IMG/VR virus record: IMGVR_UViG_2534682236_000019
Source: a virus
Lineage: Duplodnaviria; Heunggongvirae; Uroviricota; Caudoviricetes
Reading direction: 5' to 3' (one strand)
DNA length: 23,414 nt
The notes beneath the pieces were generated by a model. That model was not told where the DNA came from and made no database searches. It worked only from the letters and a program-made list of their open reading frames with translations. Shown here piece after piece: positions 3,805 to 9,315 of this stretch (positions are counted from its first letter, which is position 1; every line of letters starts with the position of its first letter). The translations under genes were made by a program, and so were the position numbers.

Positions 3805-3878
3805 ATCAGGGCATTCAGATGAGCAGCATTATCGCCACCACCGGACCATTCTTAACTGATTTCTGTGAGGATTTTATC

Positions 3879-4256
3879 GTGTCAGACGCACTCTCCGGGA
3901 CAATGCTTCCCGACGACAATCACGACCGCCCCTGGTGGGGGCTGCCCTGCACCGTGACGCCCTGTTTCGGGGCCCGACTGGTGCAGGAGGGTAACCGGTT
4001 GCATTACCTTGCCGACCGCGCCGGTATCAGAGGCAGGTTCAGCGACGCGGATGCGTACCACCTGGACCAGGCCTTTCCGCTGCTGATGAAACAACTGGAA
4101 CTCATGCTCACCGGCGGTGAACTGAATCCCCGCCATCAGCATACCGTCACACTGTATGCGAAAGGGCTGACCTGCGAAGCCGACACCCTCGGCTCCTGTG
4201 GTTACGTTTATCTGGCGGTTTATCCGACACCGGCAGCGCCCGCAACCACCGTATAA
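3879..4256 (+). CDS. cbeA: Type IV antitoxin, CbeA/YeeU family (paralogues YfjZ and YafW cannot be distinguished here)
   Basis: Core LPDDNHDRPWWGLPCTVTPCFGARLVQEGNRLHYLADRAGI...LDQAFPLLMKQLELML matches the family. GTG start at 3879 with GAGG 8 nt upstream fits the family length (about 125 aa) better than the 145-aa ATG ORF from 3819. Confidence 0.8.
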   Translation: MSDALSGTMLPDDNHDRPWWGLPCTVTPCFGARLVQEGNRLHYLADRAGIRGRFSDADAYHLDQAFPLLMKQLELMLTGGELNPRHQHTVTLYAKGLTCEADTLGSCGYVYLAVYPTPAAPATTV

Positions 4257-4302
4257 CACCGGATATCTCTCCTTTATCACCACCTGTTACAGAGAACTTA
4301 AG

Positions 4303-4680
4303 ATGAATACATTACCCGACACTCACGTACGGGAGGCATCGGGCTGCCCGTCTCCCGTCACCATCTGGCAGACACTGCTCACCCGACTGCTGGACCAGCA
4401 CTATGGTCTCACGCTGAATGACACACCGTTCGCTGATGAACGTGTGATTGAGCAGCATATTGAGGCAGGGATTTCACTGTGTGATGCGGTGAACTTTCTC
4501 GTTGAAAAATACGCGCTGGTACGAACCGACCAGCCGGGATTCAGCGCAGGAGCCCCGTCGCAGTTAATCAACAGCATTGATATTCTCCGGGCCCGCCGGG
4601 CAACCGGCCTGATGACCCGCAGCCACTACAGAACGGTAAATGACATTACCCTGGGTAAACGCACGGAGGCAAAACGATGA
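4303..4680 (+). CDS. cbtA: Type IV toxin, CbtA/YeeV family (cytoskeleton-inhibiting toxin)
   Basis: WQ.LL.RLLDQHYGLTLNDTPFADERVIEQHIEAGISLCDAVNFLVEKYALVRTDQPGF matches the family. Internal ATG at 4303 gives about 125 aa. Directly downstream of the antitoxin. Confidence 0.8.
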   Translation: MNTLPDTHVREASGCPSPVTIWQTLLTRLLDQHYGLTLNDTPFADERVIEQHIEAGISLCDAVNFLVEKYALVRTDQPGFSAGAPSQLINSIDILRARRATGLMTRSHYRTVNDITLGKRTEAKR

Positions 4681-5165
4681 AACTGGCCCTGACGCTGGAA
4701 GCTGACAGCGTTAACGTACAGGCACTGAACATGGGGCGAATTGTCGTTGACGTCGATGGTGTTGAGCTTGCCGAACTGATTAACGTGGTCTGCGATAACG
4801 GCTACTCCCTTCGTGTTGTTGATAAATCTGACCGGACCTCAACAGACAGCATCCCCCCCTCAGTTGCCCTGAGCGGCATACGCTGCAGCACCGCACATAT
4901 CACGGAAACGGACAACGCCTGGCTGTACTCGCTGTCACACCAGACTAATGACGACGGGGAATCAGAATGGATTCATTTTACCGGCAGTGGCTATCTGTTA
5001 CGTACCGATGCGTGGTCGTACCCGGTTCTGCGGCTTAAACGCCTGGGGGTGTCAAAAACCTTCCGTCGTCTGGTTGTCACACTTACCCGACGTTATGGCG
5101 TCAGTCTCATTCATCTGGATGCCTGCGCTGAATGCCTGCCGGGTTTACCCACTTTCAACTGGTAA
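4677..5165 (+). CDS. YeeW-like island protein (162 aa)
   Basis: ATGA overlap with the toxin stop. Conserved position after cbtA in CP4-type islands. Confidence 0.7.
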   Translation: MKLALTLEADSVNVQALNMGRIVVDVDGVELAELINVVCDNGYSLRVVDKSDRTSTDSIPPSVALSGIRCSTAHITETDNAWLYSLSHQTNDDGESEWIHFTGSGYLLRTDAWSYPVLRLKRLGVSKTFRRLVVTLTRRYGVSLIHLDACAECLPGLPTFNW

Positions 5166-5176
5166 CCAGGAGCAAC

Positions 5177-5374
5177 ATGAAATCATTAACCACGGAAAGC
5201 GCTCTGGATATTCTGATTGCGTGGCTGCAGGACAATATCGACTGCGAATCGGGAATTATCTTTGACAACGATGAAGATAAAACGGATTCGGCAGCACTGT
5301 TGCCCTGTATTGAACAGGCCAGGGAGGATATCCGTACCCTGCGCCAGCTGCAGCTTCCAGACCAGAACCGGTGA
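5177..5374 (+). CDS. Small acidic hypothetical protein (66 aa, YpjJ-like position)
   Basis: Internal ATG at 5177 preceded by AGGAGC. Followed by a terminator. Confidence 0.5.
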   Translation: MKSLTTESALDILIAWLQDNIDCESGIIFDNDEDKTDSAALLPCIEQAREDIRTLRQLQLPDQNR

Positions 5375-5403
5375 GTCTCATTCACCACTCTTCATTCCAC
5401 TGA

Positions 5404-5437
5404 CGCCAGCCTGAGCAGGGCTGGCGTTTTCATTTAT
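5404..5437 (+). terminator. Rho-independent terminator closing the island operon
   Basis: Stem CGCCAGCC / GGCTGGCG (8 bp), 6-nt loop, then TTTT. Confidence 0.65.
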
Positions 5438-5456
5438 TTGTAAAAAGGAAATGTAA

Positions 5457-6876
5457 TGAACGCATCCCAACATTATGAAATGAGCCGCTCGGGGATTAAG
5501 TAGATGAGTGTGGAACCCCGCAGATTTCCGGCATCATCGTGCCCAACGGGATGCGTTTCGCTCCCAACAGACTGGAGGATCCACACCATGAAATATATCC
5601 CTGTCGGTGTTGATATTGCAAAACATCTTATGCAGGTGCATTTCGTTGATGAACATACCGGAGAGATTATCGATAAGCAGGTTAAGCGTGAGAAATTCCT
5701 TGAATATTTCAGCAACCGTGAACCCTGCCTTATCGGCATGGAGGCCTGTGGGGGTTCTCATCACTGGGCGCGTGAGCTTCAGAAACTGGGACATAAGGTC
5801 AGATTACTCAAAGGCCGGTTCGTCAAAGCATTCGTGATGGGAAATAAAAACGATGTGATGGACGCCCGAGCCATCTGGCTGGCGGTTCAGCAGCCGGTAA
5901 AATCCGTCGCCGTTAAAAGCGAGGAGCAACAGGCTACGCTGGGGTTACACCGAATGCGCCAGCAACTGGTGAAGTTCAGGACAGCACAAATAAACGCGCT
6001 TCACGGTCTCTTGCTGGAATTTGGTGAAACGACGCACAAGGGGCGTGCTGCTTTGGCGAAGGAGGTGCCGGAAGCCCTGGAGCGTCTGAAGGAGCGGCTA
6101 CCGCTCTACCTGATAAACATGCTGGATGAACAATATCAGCGAATTACTGAACTTGATGAACATCTTGACCACATTGAGAAGCAGCTGCAGGCGGTAGCCA
6201 GACAGAATGAAACCTGTCAGCGGTTACTGAACATCCCAGGCGTGGGGCCGTTAATCGCCACCGCTGCCGTTGCCACGATGGGAGACGCCTCCGCCTTTAA
6301 GTCGGGACGGGAATTCGCCGCGTTTATCGGTCTGGTGCCCAGACAGACAGGCTCAGGAGGAAAAATCCGCCTGCTGGGAATAAGCAAACGTGGTGATAAA
6401 TATCTGCGAACCCTGTTTATTCATGGTGCAAGGGCGGCAGCATTACTGACCAAAGAACCTGGTCCATGGATAACCGAACTGAAAAAGCGTCGTCCGGCCA
6501 GCGTGGCAATCGTCGCAATGGCAAACAAGCTGGCGCGAACGGTGTGGGCAATAGCCGCTCACGGACGTAAATACGACAAAAATCATGTCAGTATCAGGCC
6601 TGATTAATCGCTGATACCGATAAACATAAACTCTTTACAAAAGGGTGAATGCAGAAAGGTTGCTCTGGCAGCCAGCGTGATGACAAAGACAGGTAAGACC
6701 GTGACTCACTAAACCTGGATAATCGATTGGGCCTAAAGCCCGCTGAGGAAATGAGGCGTGAGTCGGCGAATTACATAGGGGCTCGCAGCTTCCGGGCTGC
6801 AATAAAGCCGGATATAAAGCTGCAACCTACCGTCGATGTCAGAACAATGGATGCCTTTGCAAACGGGATGCGTTCA
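5457..6876 (+). mobile_element. IS110-family insertion sequence (about 1.42 kb; IS1111-like size and layout), boundaries approximate
   Basis: A single DEDD-type transposase ORF flanked by a perfect 12-13 bp inverted repeat (TGAACGCATCCC at 5457-5468; GGGATGCGTTCA at 6865-6876). Non-coding arms of about 130 bp (5') and 270 bp (3'). Inserted between the island terminator and the next gene. Confidence 0.6.
5588..6607 (+). CDS. IS110-family transposase (DEDD RuvC-like N-terminal domain plus C-terminal transposase domain), 339 aa
   Basis: N-terminal IPVGVDIAKH...GMEACGG...MDARAI and C-terminal GVGPLIATA...FAAFIGLVPRQTGSGGK...ISKRGDKYLR are hallmark IS110/IS116/IS902-type motifs. ATG 5588 preceded by GGAGG. 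Confidence 0.85.
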   Translation: MKYIPVGVDIAKHLMQVHFVDEHTGEIIDKQVKREKFLEYFSNREPCLIGMEACGGSHHWARELQKLGHKVRLLKGRFVKAFVMGNKNDVMDARAIWLAVQQPVKSVAVKSEEQQATLGLHRMRQQLVKFRTAQINALHGLLLEFGETTHKGRAALAKEVPEALERLKERLPLYLINMLDEQYQRITELDEHLDHIEKQLQAVARQNETCQRLLNIPGVGPLIATAAVATMGDASAFKSGREFAAFIGLVPRQTGSGGKIRLLGISKRGDKYLRTLFIHGARAAALLTKEPGPWITELKKRRPASVAIVAMANKLARTVWAIAAHGRKYDKNHVSIRPD

Positions 6877-6889
6877 TATAATATCGATT

Positions 6890-7738
6890 ATGTCTGATAT
6901 CACAGCCTCCCGTCCGAAAGTGGTCAACGGGCATACGGACGTTATCTGCTCCACCTCAGTCAGCCACATTCTGGCTGTACGAAAGAGTACACTGCTGCAA
7001 ATCGACACACTTATCCGGCAACTGGCTGAAATCTCAGCAATGACGGAAAGCATTGGCGGCAAAACCGCCCGGGACTGGGCCATGAAACAGGATTTTCGCT
7101 GCGGCTGCTGGCTGATGGATAAAACGGAAACCGCAATGAAAGCCATCACCCGCAATCTTGACCGCGAAATCTGGCGTGACCTGATGCAACGTTCCGGGAT
7201 GCTGTCATTAATGGATGTGCAGGCCCGTGATACATGGTACAGCTCACTGGAGTACGATAATTTTCCGGAAATCAGTGAAGCGAACATTCTGAGCACATTT
7301 GAACAACTGCACCAGAACAAAGATGAAGTGTTTGAGCGAGGGGTGATCAACGTCTTCAGAGGGCTGAACTGGAATTACAAAACCAATTGCCCCTGTAAAT
7401 TTGGCAGTAAAATTATCGTCAACAATCTGGTGAGGTGGGACCTGTGGGGATTGCATCTTATCACCGGGCAACAGGCAGATCGACTTGCCGACCTGGAAAG
7501 AATGCTGCACCTGTTCAGCGGCAAACCGATCCCCGACAGCCGGGAAAATATTATTATTCGGCTGGATGATCACATCCGCTCCGTTCAGGGCAAAGCCTGC
7601 TATGAAGATGAGATGTTCAGCATCAGATACTTTAAGAAGGGCTCCGCGCATATCACGTTCAGAAAACCAGAACTGGTTGATCGGCTAAATGACATCATTG
7701 CGAAGTATTATCCAGAAATAATCCCATACAATATCTAA
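6890..7738 (+). CDS. Conserved island hypothetical protein (282 aa; possibly DUF4942-like), integrase-adjacent
   Basis: Long ORF with plausible codon usage. Start chosen at ATG 6890, just beyond the IS right inverted repeat; the upstream part of the listed ORF would be IS-derived. Family name is from memory only. Confidence 0.55.
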   Translation: MSDITASRPKVVNGHTDVICSTSVSHILAVRKSTLLQIDTLIRQLAEISAMTESIGGKTARDWAMKQDFRCGCWLMDKTETAMKAITRNLDREIWRDLMQRSGMLSLMDVQARDTWYSSLEYDNFPEISEANILSTFEQLHQNKDEVFERGVINVFRGLNWNYKTNCPCKFGSKIIVNNLVRWDLWGLHLITGQQADRLADLERMLHLFSGKPIPDSRENIIIRLDDHIRSVQGKACYEDEMFSIRYFKKGSAHITFRKPELVDRLNDIIAKYYPEIIPYNI

Positions 7739-7830
7739 TAAAACTAATCATTTCTTGTTGTGACTGATTTAGTTGAACCATACTGCATGGTCGAGTAGAC
7801 AGGGTATCTCAGACCATGCATGTATTTTTA

Positions 7831-9150
7831 TCATCTGTTCCCAAATTTTATATGAATAACATTATCCGGAGCATTCTGCTGCACAGTAATGACGTTATTC
7901 ATAATAAAATTCCCCCATTCTATAAATAATTTTTTTAATTTTTCAGCTTGTTGTCCGACTTGATATGTTCGTATTAAACGGTCTTTGGGTACATGATTTA
8001 ACAGTAACTCTATTAGGCGCTCTGGAGCATCAAGGTATTCAGCGCATCCAGTCGCAACACTTCTACGCAGATCATGAGGAGAAAATGGAGTAAGTTCGGC
8101 TAGATACTTAGAGCGAACCCTTTCTAACGCGCGAGTCAGAGCGTCATTTGTGATGGGAAAGCCAGGTTTGCTAGTAGAACCAAAAACATATGCACCTTCA
8201 GTGAATTCACGTTGTGTTTTTATTAAAGAAAGCATATACGGATGTAAAGTAACAATATGGCTTTTCCCATTTTTAGTGGCTGGTATGGTCCAACGCTCTC
8301 CATTAATTTGATCCCAGCGCATTTGTGCCGCTTCAGAGCGGCGCACTCCTGTGAAAATAATCAAACGGAGTGCATTTGCGACAGAATGAGATAATACCAC
8401 ACTAGAGGAAATTCCATAGCCACCAGATGCAATGGAGCCTCCTCCAACAGTAGCATCATCCAAAGCCTTCCATAGCATCCGGAGTTCATTCTCAGGAAGC
8501 CATCGCTCGCGAGGTTTATTCATCGATGCACCAAACATTGCTGGTTTGAGCAGTCGTGCTGGGTTATGCTCAAGCATACCCTGTAAGTTGGCATGATCAA
8601 GAGTCATATTTAGAATAATTAATCCTTTACGAACTGCTTCAGAACTGGTTTTTCTTACATTACTGAGATGTTCAAAAATAACGCTTTTGGTAAGTTCGTC
8701 AATGCAAAGGTTTCCTAATGCTTTTTCAAGGTGGCGGTGATAAGTCCCTTCATAATCTGCAAGGGTTCTGGTGCTAATTGGTTTACTTGTCTTTCTGAAT
8801 TCTATCCAATCTTTCCATAATTCAGAGTAAATAATCATTTGTTCATTTTTTTGTTTTTCATTTTTTCTAATATGACGAGGATCTATACCTTTTCTTACTA
8901 ATTCAATTGCATCCGCATGAGCTTTACGAGCTTGAGCTAATCCCATGGCAGGGTAACTACCTAGTGTTAATTTAGCTGGCTTTTGAGCTATTCGATAACG
9001 ATAAATCCAGCTTTTATTGTCGCTACCATAACGAACGCGTATAAAGAGTCCTCCCCCAGCTTTAGATTTTACAGCAAATAAGATTTCTTTTTCTTCTTTA
9101 GTAACGGTCAATGAAGCCAATTGTCTGTCTTGTGTAATAGTAAAAGTCAT
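7831..9150 (-). CDS. P4-type tyrosine integrase (IntA/IntF-like), 439 aa
   Basis: N-terminal arm-binding-like region and C-terminal catalytic region with R...HDLRRS...Y residues (FSPHDLRRSVATG, LLNHV, RTYQ). ATG at 9150 (M13 of the listed ORF) has an AAGG RBS. AT-rich relative to neighbours. Confidence 0.85.
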   Translation of the reverse strand: MTFTITQDRQLASLTVTKEEKEILFAVKSKAGGGLFIRVRYGSDNKSWIYRYRIAQKPAKLTLGSYPAMGLAQARKAHADAIELVRKGIDPRHIRKNEKQKNEQMIIYSELWKDWIEFRKTSKPISTRTLADYEGTYHRHLEKALGNLCIDELTKSVIFEHLSNVRKTSSEAVRKGLIILNMTLDHANLQGMLEHNPARLLKPAMFGASMNKPRERWLPENELRMLWKALDDATVGGGSIASGGYGISSSVVLSHSVANALRLIIFTGVRRSEAAQMRWDQINGERWTIPATKNGKSHIVTLHPYMLSLIKTQREFTEGAYVFGSTSKPGFPITNDALTRALERVRSKYLAELTPFSPHDLRRSVATGCAEYLDAPERLIELLLNHVPKDRLIRTYQVGQQAEKLKKLFIEWGNFIMNNVITVQQNAPDNVIHIKFGNR

Positions 9151-9315
9151 ATCTTCAGCCTTTTGGGTACACAGTGGGGTACACATTTAACATGATATCA
9201 TCAGAAACAAGGCGAAACATCTTGATACTGCATTTGTGTGTATTTTATTGATTTTTATACAATTTTTATTGTATACGGAAACGGCTGTGAACATCTTGAA
9301 TCACTGGTCTCGCTA

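What the first reader, a model, noticed from the sequence alone, without database searches (positions are those of the whole stretch)
5440..6890. IS110-family element with terminal inverted repeats and a third internal repeat copy: candidate bridge/seek-RNA locus
The DEDD transposase is flanked by a perfect 12-13 bp inverted repeat (5457-5468 and 6865-6876). A third copy, AACGGGATGCGTT (5545-5557), lies in direct orientation to the right-end copy, 30 bp upstream of the transposase start. IS110-family elements are known to encode a structured guide RNA (bridge RNA / seekRNA) in a non-coding arm with loops complementary to the element ends and to the target, so an internal sequence matching an end is what such a guide would contain. 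The about 270-bp 3' arm (6608-6876) and about 130-bp 5' arm are both long enough to encode it. Joining the flanks across the element gives ...ggaaatgtaa|tataatatcgattATG, a plausible promoter in front of the downstream gene.
Basis: partly seen in the sequence, partly recalled or inferred. Interest (0 to 1): 0.6.

Follow-up and report, generated by a model that had tools for sequence, protein, structure and literature searches.

The report
ISEc11-like insertion sequence with guide RNA

Summary
The repeats exist as described: a perfect 13-bp inverted repeat (5456-5468 / 6865-6877) and a 13-nt third copy (5545-5557). Two empty sites show the inverted repeats are subterminal, not terminal. The element is 5449-6879 (1431 bp), with a 7-nt left and a 2-nt right extension, as in published IS1111-family elements. 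Its transposase (339 aa) is 80% identical to that of ISEc11.

The guide RNA is in the 3' arm, about 6688-6836. It forms two stem-bounded internal loops, with 14 compensatory base pairs across 28 relatives. A covariance model built without this copy finds only this site (158.8 bits).

- Loop 1 pairs with the right flank (AUAAUCGAUU) and matches the left flank (AGGAAAUG).
- Loop 2 matches the two element ends.
- Both track flank or end changes across relatives (target loop: 0 of 10,000 permutations).

The third copy is not a guide. It is one arm of a hairpin in a 5' leader structure that covers the transposase ribosome-binding site. It is 13 nt long only in this element and does not follow repeat variants in relatives.

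The "promoter" obtained by joining the flanks is wrong. The uninterrupted site is AAAAAGGAATATCGATTATG, the ribosome-binding site and start codon of a DUF4942 gene. This is a known kind of element. One side observation may be new: most relatives insert between a ribosome-binding site and a start codon.

The parts
5449..6879 (+). Whole insertion sequence, 1431 bp, using the published ISEc11 end convention. AA at 5449-5450 is repeated at 6880-6881, so the boundaries can slide by up to 2 nt.
   Evidence: Occupied versus empty sites. Copies 99.2-99.7% identical sit at six other flank combinations (L001, L054, L055, L073, L078, L107).
5449..5455 (+). Left terminal extension AAATGTA, the 7 nt outside the left inverted repeat.
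   Evidence: Identical in ISEc11 copies (L070, L095). A 7-bp left extension is stated for the IS1111 family in PMC11187229.
5456..5468 (+). Left subterminal inverted repeat ATGAACGCATCCC.
   Evidence: Conserved in relatives, with matched changes in both arms (L018 ATGAGCACTTCCC, L024 ATGGACGCTTCCC).
5510..5584 (+). 5' leader structure. The outer helix 5510-5519 / 5575-5584 encloses two hairpins (5530-5534/5539-5543 and 5548-5554/5560-5565) and covers most of the tnp ribosome-binding site GGAGGA (5574-5579).
   Evidence: Across 21 relatives, 88% of cells are paired against 31-51% when partners are slid. Eight pairs show changes on both sides.
5545..5557 (+). The 'third copy' AACGGGATGCGTT. It is the 5' arm of the second leader hairpin and is not a guide.
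5588..6607 (+). Transposase gene, 339 aa, DEDD/RuvC-like, with the motif GLVPRQTGSG.
   Evidence: It is 80% identical in protein to ISEc11 Tnp.
6688..6836 (+). Predicted long seekRNA / bridge RNA, two domains.
   Evidence: Consensus structure with 95.8% of cells paired and 14 compensatory pairs. Covariance model R1, built without this copy, gives one hit at 158.8 bits, E 5e-38.
6703..6764 (+). Domain 1, the target-binding loop and likely core of the short seekRNA. Stems: 6703-6709/6758-6764 and 6714-6716/6754-6756. Capping hairpin: 6729-6732/6738-6741.
   Evidence: It occupies the same alignment columns as the ISEc11 target matches CAGUAUUU and GUGAAAAU.
6719..6728 (+). T strand of loop 1, AUAAUCGAUU, complementary to the top strand of the right flank.
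   Evidence: 9/10 pairs with ATCGATTAT (6883-6891), shifted 2 nt. 10/10 pairs (9 Watson-Crick plus 1 G-T) in register at the IncI1 occupied right flank AATTGATTAT. Across 23 distinct loops: 8.09/10 against 5.48 +/- 0.25 when permuted, 0 of 10,000.
6746..6753 (+). B strand of loop 1, AGGAAAUG, identical to the left flank-element junction 5446-5453, so it pairs with the bottom strand.
   Evidence: Left-flank match across 19 variants: 4.1 against 3.36 +/- 0.17, 0 of 10,000.
6766..6823 (+). Domain 2, the donor-binding loop. Stems: 6766-6768/6821-6823, 6771-6772/6817-6818 and 6780-6783/6806-6809. Hairpin: 6785-6789/6796-6800.
6770..6776 (+). Loop 2 5' strand, AUUACAU, the reverse complement of the left end ATGTAAT (5451-5457).
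   Evidence: Exact in 35 of 44 loci across three sequence variants. Two further variants appear (L006, L018).
6812..6818 (+). Loop 2 3' strand, AUAUAAA, identical to the right end ATAT plus AAA, as in a circle junction.
   Evidence: Relatives show ATATAG with ATATAG and ATACAG with ATACAG.
6865..6877 (+). Right subterminal inverted repeat GGGATGCGTTCAT.
6880..6892 (+). Right half of the target, AATATCGATTATG: the spacer and start codon (6890-6892) of the DUF4942 gene. The left half, AAAAAGG (5442-5448), carries its ribosome-binding site.

Best explanation
Region 5449-6879 is an intact, recently active insertion sequence of the IS1111 group of the IS110 family. It belongs to the ISEc11/ISXne4 clade but is a distinct element.

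It encodes a 339-aa DEDD transposase. Downstream of it lies a structured non-coding RNA of about 150 nt (6688-6836), homologous to the experimentally defined ISEc11 seekRNA and equivalent to a bridge RNA.

Domain 1 is an internal loop. Its 5' strand (AUAAUCGAUU) pairs with the top strand of the right half of the target. Its 3' strand (AGGAAAUG) pairs with the bottom strand of the left half. Domain 2 is a second internal loop whose two strands match the left end (ATGTAAT) and the right end (ATAT plus AA).

By analogy with ISEc11 and IS621, the transposase-RNA complex would excise the element as a circle and insert it, in one orientation, at sites resembling AGG-AA-T(C/T)GATTAT. This step is inferred, not shown here. 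In this window the element sits between the ribosome-binding site and the ATG of a DUF4942 gene in a CbtA/CbeA island.

The internal 'third copy' belongs to a separate 5' leader structure that occludes the transposase ribosome-binding site. That points to translational control (inferred). It is not part of the guide.
For: - **Protein family:**
- **Ends:** fixed by two independent empty sites.
- **Family anatomy:** 13-bp subterminal repeats, 7-nt and 2-nt extensions, and a long 3' non-coding region match the published IS1111 description (PMC11187229; PMC11208160).
- **ISEc11 recognised:** ISEc11 appears among fetched loci by its published target GTGAAAATACTG (L070, L095). Its published target matches fall in the same alignment columns as the window's T and B strands.
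- **RNA structure:** 30 pairs, 95.8% of cells paired, 14 pairs with compensatory change, slid controls 27-44%.
- **Covariance model:** built from 27 relatives without this copy, it gives one hit in 23.4 kb at 6688-6836, 158.8 bits.
- **Guide-target covariation:** T loop 8.09/10 against 5.48 when permuted, 0 of 10,000. Examples: L100 and L003 at 10/10, and L089 against L110 differing by matched substitutions.
- **Donor-end covariation:**
- **Recent activity:** copies 99.2-99.7% identical, four of them with 100% identical Tnp, lie at different sites that all carry (C/T)GATTATG.
Against: - No expression or RNA data exist for this element, and no sigma-70-like promoter was found on the + strand inside it. 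Transcription would have to come from tnp read-through or from a circle-junction promoter, as proposed for ISEc11.
- Rfam 15 gave no match, even at E up to 1.
- At this chromosomal site the T loop pairs only with a 2-nt shift or bulge, either 3 + 7 bp or 9 contiguous bp shifted. The IncI1 site is in register.
- The inserted length differs by one A between sites, 1431 against 1432 nt. A strictly conservative 2-nt-core exchange does not predict this.
- The single-sequence fold of 6688-6836 is not exceptional (z = -1.6). The support comes from comparison with relatives.
Confidence: 0.9

Rival explanations
1. The guide RNA is encoded in the 5' arm, and the third copy (5545-5557) is its end-matching (donor) segment.
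For: The 13-nt identity with the right subterminal repeat is real and unlikely by chance. Some IS110-group elements do carry the guide in the left arm.
Against: - The match is 13 nt only in this element and 7 nt or less in 15 of 22 relatives, including six with the identical repeat.
- It does not follow repeat variants in L003, L018, L024 or L027.
- The segment is one arm of a hairpin that shows compensatory changes, so it is a structural element.
- By eye, I saw nothing in the 5' arm that tracks flank sequence. All four flank- or end-matching segments are in the 3' arm.
- In characterised IS1111 members, the essential RNA maps downstream of tnp.
Confidence: 0.04
2. The third copy is a regulatory anti-repeat. 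In transcripts that enter from outside and therefore contain the left repeat, 5458-5468 pairs with 5548-5558. This breaks the local hairpin and frees GCUCCC to pair with the tnp ribosome-binding site, so read-through transcripts stay untranslated. This would add to the main explanation rather than replace it.
For: The MFE fold of 5449-5600 forms exactly this 11-bp stem plus a CUCC:GGAG pairing. Duplex energy is -20.0 kcal/mol against -9.1 +/- 1.7 for shuffled queries. In about 10 of 23 relatives the best partner of the left repeat lies at the same place. From my own knowledge, comparable protection against outside transcription is known for IS10 and IS50.
Against: The whole-arm fold is not better than shuffles (z = -0.68). 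Half of the relatives lack the pairing, and in most of the others it is barely stronger than controls. The covarying outer helix already covers the ribosome-binding site without it.
Confidence: 0.2
3. The element is an inert relic, or merely an isoform of ISEc11, with nothing specific to this copy.
For: It is the same family and has the same end sequences as ISEc11: AAATGTAATGAACGCATCCC ... GGGATGCGTTCATAT.
Against: It is 77% identical in DNA and 80% in protein to ISEc11, with different T and B guide strands and a different target. The ORF is intact. Near-identical copies lie at several different sites on chromosomes and on an IncI1 plasmid.
Confidence: 0.03

Closest known systems
ISEc11 (IS1111 group, E. 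coli) and its seekRNA (Siddiquee et al. 2024, PMC11187229)
   Same: Transposase of 339 aa. Identical left extension AAATGTA and identical 13-bp subterminal repeats. A 3' non-coding region with the same two-domain fold. T match 5' of B match, in the same alignment columns. Site- and orientation-specific insertion with no clear duplication.
   Different: 77% DNA and 80% protein identity. Element length 1431 bp against 1442-1443 bp. Guide strands AUAAUCGAUU / AGGAAAUG instead of CAGUAUUU / GUGAAAAU. Target AGG-AA-T(C/T)GATTATG instead of GTGAAAATACTG. No experiments exist for this element.
ISXne4-like elements of Xenorhabdus and Photorhabdus (L003, L005-L008)
   Same: 77-82% protein identity. Same architecture. 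The paper describes ISXne4 as a natural retargeting of the ISEc11 seekRNA.
   Different: Different T loops and different targets, for example AUGAUCCCUU with AAGGGATCAT in L003. I cannot say which fetched locus, if any, is ISXne4 itself.
IS621 bridge RNA (IS110 group; Durrant et al. 2024, PMC11208160; structures 8wt6)
   Same: A DEDD recombinase plus an RNA with two internal loops, one matching the target and one matching the element ends. Each loop reads both DNA strands (for this element).
   Different: The IS621 RNA is in the left arm, with only 2-3-bp subterminal repeats. The order of strand matches is reversed (abstract of PMC11187229). The proteins are only distantly related (E 7.6e-9 over the C-terminal half).

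Membership tests
IS110 family, IS1111 group | DEDD (RuvC-like) transposase with the PF01548 N-terminal and PF02371 C-terminal domains | tested here: met
   PF01548 at 52 bits and PF02371 at 82 bits. NF033542 'IS110 family RNA-guided transposase' at 341 bits, cut-off 140.
IS110 family, IS1111 group | C-terminal GL-P----S(T)G motif | tested here: met
   GLVPRQTGSG is present in the translation. The motif is as given in PMC11187229.
IS110 family, IS1111 group | Subterminal inverted repeats of 7-17 bp with short terminal extensions (7 bp on the left) | tested here: met
   A 13-bp perfect repeat, 7 nt from the left end and 2 nt from the right end. Ends were fixed by empty sites.
IS110 family, IS1111 group | Longer non-coding region downstream of tnp | tested here: met
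   272 nt downstream against 139 nt upstream.
IS110 family, IS1111 group | Sequence- and orientation-specific insertion without a regular target duplication | tested here: met
   All flank combinations found share AGG / AA..(C/T)GATTATG in one orientation. The overlap is 1-2 nt of A, not a fixed duplication.
IS110 family, IS1111 group | Circular intermediate with abutted ends and a junction promoter | not testable with these tools
   Needs PCR or sequencing. In silico the best hexamers, TTGCAA (6857-6862) and TGTAAT (5452-5457), would be 20 nt apart in a circle, so a promoter is not obvious.
seekRNA / bridge RNA | Conserved structured RNA in the long non-coding arm | tested here: met
   Consensus fold with 14 compensatory pairs and 95.8% of cells paired. 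Independent covariance-model hit at 158.8 bits.
seekRNA / bridge RNA | [quoted passage not shown] | tested here: met
   (permutation 0 of 10,000). At this particular site the T pairing is shifted by 2 nt.
seekRNA / bridge RNA | Segments matching the donor (element) ends | tested here: met
   AUUACAU is the reverse complement of ATGTAAT, and AUAUAAA equals the right end plus AAA. Both covary across variants.
seekRNA / bridge RNA | The RNA is made, binds the transposase and is required for transposition | not testable with these tools
   Shown for ISEc11, ISPa11, ISKpn4 and ISPst6. Inferred here by homology.
seekRNA / bridge RNA | Match to a curated Rfam family | tested here: not met
   No Rfam 15 match at E up to 1 in 5000-7400. 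Whether Rfam holds a model for IS1111-type guide RNAs is unknown to me.
ISEc11 (same element or isoform) | Near-identity in DNA and protein and the same target (ISfinder practice, from memory: roughly 95% DNA identity or more) | tested here: not met
   77% DNA and 80% protein identity to L070 and L095, which carry the published ISEc11 target. The guide and target differ.

The most novel reading that the evidence does not exclude
This ISEc11-like clade, with ISEc11 itself as the exception, is aimed at translation initiation regions. The constant parts of the guide read a Shine-Dalgarno-like AGGAG or AGGAA on the left and the AT of an ATG on the right. The roughly 8 variable loop bases choose the gene. 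As a result the elements insert between ribosome-binding site and start codon, in the gene's orientation. This places the ATG of the left repeat 7-8 nt behind the host ribosome-binding site. That would silence the target gene and could couple expression of the element to host translation signals. The insertion pattern is shown here. The coupling is speculation.
Probability: 0.45. Interest if true: 0.55.

Novelty: new member of a known kind. Interest (0 to 1): 0.3.

Why it matters
For this window it settles the annotation. The report gives the exact ends of an active RNA-guided insertion sequence, its guide RNA with the four guide segments mapped, and the fact that it splits the ribosome-binding site from the start codon of a DUF4942 gene in a CbtA/CbeA island.

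More widely, it adds a natural retargeted variant of ISEc11, the experimentally best-studied IS1111-type element. It comes with a set of about 35 natural guide-target pairs from relatives, which could inform programming rules for seekRNA systems, including tolerance of G-T pairs, shifted registers and one-base junction variation.

The tendency of the clade to hit ribosome-binding-site-to-ATG spacers may be a new observation and is cheap to test.

Tried and rejected
- **Rfam:** a scan of 5000-7400 at E up to 1 gave nothing.
- **First empty-site query:** The alignment exposed the error and I repeated it with corrected ends.
- **Naming the element:** ISfinder is not available. Peptides of this transposase are absent from the transposase FASTA in the supplement of PMC11187229, which keeps one representative per 70% identity group. 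Paper searches for ISEc11 gave no name.
- **5' leader fold:** RNAalifold on the 5' arm did not return the long-range helix. I specified it by hand and tested it with pair counts, so that structure is less independent than the 3' one.
- **Leader ORF:** an ORF starting at the left repeat's ATG exists in all relatives. Its length (mostly 9-17 codons) is what random sequence gives, and its frame and stop position are not conserved, so I make no claim.
- **Conserved third-copy pairing:** pairing of the third copy with the left repeat appears in only about 10 of 23 relatives and is weak.
- **Promoters:** the scan found no + strand sigma-70-like site inside the element.
- **Prior reports of ribosome-binding-site targeting:** none found in the searched papers.
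Full report
**1. The observation**

- ATGAACGCATCCC (5456-5468) and GGGATGCGTTCAT (6865-6877) form a perfect 13-bp inverted repeat.
- AACGGGATGCGTT (5545-5557) repeats 6862-6874 in direct orientation and ends 30 nt before the ATG at 5588.
- ORF 5588-6607 (339 aa) carries PF01548 and PF02371. It scores 341 bits on NCBIfam NF033542, 'IS110 family RNA-guided transposase'.
- Its nearest solved relatives are the ISCro4 and IS621 transposases, both distant.

**2. Where the element ends**

Related DNA occurs in 237 of 5,426 complete E. coli genomes. 69 records carry copies at 99% identity or more, and nearly all of the best-scoring rows listed lie in front of a DUF4942 gene.

Uninterrupted paralogous sites read GTAAAAAGGAATATCGATTATG. 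The best is 97.3% identical over 300 nt with no gap. A second, independent insertion lies in an IncI1 plasmid, and hundreds of IncI1 plasmids carry its empty site, GAAGAGGATTGATTATG.

Both comparisons put the element at about 5449-6879 (1431 bp). The inverted repeats are therefore subterminal, with AAATGTA outside the left one and AT outside the right one. AA is shared between the element start and the right flank, so the boundaries can slide by up to 2 nt.

The true pre-insertion sequence is the AAGGA ribosome-binding site plus the ATG of the DUF4942 gene, not a promoter.

**3. What kind of element**

Subterminal repeats, a 7-bp left extension, a transposase of 330-350 aa and a long non-coding region downstream of tnp are the published marks of the IS1111 group (PMC11187229; PMC11208160).

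I fetched 51 relatives from genomes and 65 loci from metagenomes using the right-end sequence. Among them, ISEc11 itself can be recognised by its published target GTGAAAATACTG (for example L070 and L095).

The window element has the same extension and the same repeats as ISEc11. It is only 77% identical in DNA and 80% in protein, so it is a distinct member of that clade. I could not obtain an ISfinder name.

Copies 99.2-99.7% identical, four of them with 100% identical transposase, lie at six other flank combinations. This argues for recent activity.

**4. The guide RNA**

An alignment of 28 non-redundant 3' arms gives a consensus fold of 30 pairs.
- 95.8% of cells are paired, 14 pairs carry compensatory changes, and slid controls reach only 27-44%.
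- The fold has two domains, each an internal loop closed by stems and capped by a hairpin. Window coordinates are listed in the parts.
- A covariance model built from the 27 relatives, without this copy, finds exactly one site in the 23.4-kb window: 6688-6836 on the + strand, 158.8 bits.
- Rfam has no match.

*Loop 1 reads the target.*
- The 5' strand AUAAUCGAUU (6719-6728) is complementary to the right flank.
- The 3' strand AGGAAAUG (6746-6753) is identical to the left junction 5446-5453.
- These sit in the same alignment columns as ISEc11's CAGUAUUU and GUGAAAAU, which match its published target. The order is T before B, as published for IS1111 members.
- Across 23 distinct loops, the T strand pairs with its own reconstructed target at 8.09 of 10 positions. 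Permuted pairs give 5.48 +/- 0.25 (0 of 10,000).
- The B strand matches its own left flank better than permuted flanks (0 of 10,000).
- Clear cases are L100 and L003 (10/10) and the pair L089/L110, whose loops and flanks differ by matched substitutions.

*Loop 2 reads the element ends.*
- AUUACAU (6770-6776) is the reverse complement of ATGTAAT (5451-5457).
- AUAUAAA (6812-6818) equals the right end ATAT plus AAA.
- Both change together with the ends in relatives.

This is the target-loop plus donor-loop logic of bridge RNAs. Excision as a circle and RNA-guided insertion are inferred by homology and are not shown here.

**5. Two details that do not fit neatly**

- At the IncI1 site the T strand pairs in register with the occupied right flank: 10/10, counting one G-T pair. 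At this chromosomal site the flank has two extra bases (AAT-AT-CGATTAT). Pairing is then either 3 + 7 bp around a bulge or 9 contiguous bp shifted by 2. Other DUF4942-type sites show offsets of 1-3.
- The inserted DNA is 1431 nt here but 1432 nt in the IncI1 plasmid. L055 and L078 also carry one extra A at the right junction. I have no explanation for this.

**6. The third copy**

It lies in a 5' leader structure that is moderately supported by comparison: 88% of cells paired against 31-51% when slid, with eight pairs changed on both sides.
- The outer helix 5510-5519/5575-5584 covers most of the tnp ribosome-binding site (GGAGGA, 5574-5579).
- The third copy is the 5' arm of the inner hairpin 5548-5554/5560-5565.
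- Its identity to the right repeat is 13 nt only in this element, 9-10 nt in 7 of 22 relatives (including ISEc11) and 7 nt or less in the others. It does not follow repeat variants.

It is therefore not a guide segment.

In this copy it can pair with the left repeat in transcripts that include the left end. That might block translation of read-through transcripts. The pairing is weak or absent in half of the relatives, so I give this idea low confidence.

**7. Side observation**

- Of 61 unique right flanks of this element and its relatives, 52 have an ATG 3-14 nt after the element end.
- 40 of these are at +8 or +9, and 36 open an ORF of at least 50 codons.
- Left flanks mostly end in AGGAG- or AGGAA-like sequences.

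The clade, apart from ISEc11, therefore inserts between ribosome-binding site and start codon, in the orientation of the target gene. I did not find this described in the papers I could search.

**8. Verdict**

This is a real, ordinary-in-kind IS1111-type element with a well-supported seekRNA/bridge-RNA locus in its 3' arm. I rate it a new member of a known kind, subject to an ISfinder check, and of modest interest.

Noticed in passing
Right and left flanks of window 5449-6879 and of loci L001-L118: Of 61 unique right flanks of this element and its relatives, 52 have an ATG 3-14 nt after the element end, 40 at +8/+9, and 36 open an ORF of at least 50 codons. Left flanks mostly end in AGGAG- or AGGAA-like sequences. 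The clade, except ISEc11, inserts between ribosome-binding site and start codon. I did not find this in the searched papers.
   Followed up: partly
window 6879-6882; L001 4437-4440; L055, L078; L119 150-153: The number of A's at the junction varies by one. Inserted DNA is 1431 nt at the chromosomal site and 1432 nt at the IncI1 site. L055 and L078 have CATAT-AAATATCG where the window has CATAT-AATATCG. Unexplained.
   Followed up: partly
window 6880-6892: The target here pairs with the T loop only with a 2-nt shift or bulge, whereas the IncI1 site pairs in register. Several DUF4942-type sites with 1-3 nt offsets have nevertheless been hit.
   Followed up: partly
window 5456-5503 and 5504-6607: The left repeat starts with an ATG placed 7 nt behind the host ribosome-binding site and opens a 15-codon ORF (MNASQHYEMSRSGIK). 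Its stop, TAG 5501-5503, abuts ATG 5504, which is in frame with tnp and gives a 367-aa ORF. Relatives all have a short MNAS... leader ORF, but its frame and stop position are not conserved.
   Followed up: partly
window 5510-5584: A covarying helix 5510-5519/5575-5584 covers most of the tnp ribosome-binding site. This is a likely translational brake on the transposase.
   Followed up: yes
L057, L059, L071, L096, L111: Only the last ~32 nt of the right end (..TTGCAAACGGGATGCGTTCATA..) are present, without the non-coding arm or tnp. They sit 8 nt before the ATG of a 409-codon ORF (read for L057 and L096), so they look like solo right-end remnants.
   Followed up: no
L010-L037 (Symbiopectobacterium purcellii NZ_CP189882.1): One genome carries 20 or more copies with nearly the same guide at many different ribosome-binding-site/ATG sites. 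Many pair with the T loop at only 5-7 of 10 positions, which suggests relaxed specificity during an expansion.
   Followed up: no
window 6857-6882: The right end plus flank creates a perfect TATAAT (6877-6882), but the only -35-like hexamer, TTGCAA (6857-6862), is 14 nt upstream. In a circle, TTGCAA and TGTAAT would be 20 nt apart. No convincing outward or junction promoter by simple rules.
   Followed up: partly
window 3819-9186: Context is a CP4-like island: CbeA antitoxin (3819-4256), CbtA toxin (4303-4680), DUF5983 (4677-5165), DUF957 (5132-5374), a terminator-like hairpin at 5402-5428, then the IS, DUF4942 (6890-7738), and a tyrosine integrase on the minus strand (7831-9186).
   Followed up: partly
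L062, L063, L065 and about 20 further metagenome loci: A frequent relative sits at CATAT-AAACAACATGGAGCAGC. No left repeat was found 1250-1650 nt upstream, and its loop-2 strand reads ATATAG against a flank starting AA. L082 at the same site has a different T loop, so it may be chimeric.
   Followed up: no
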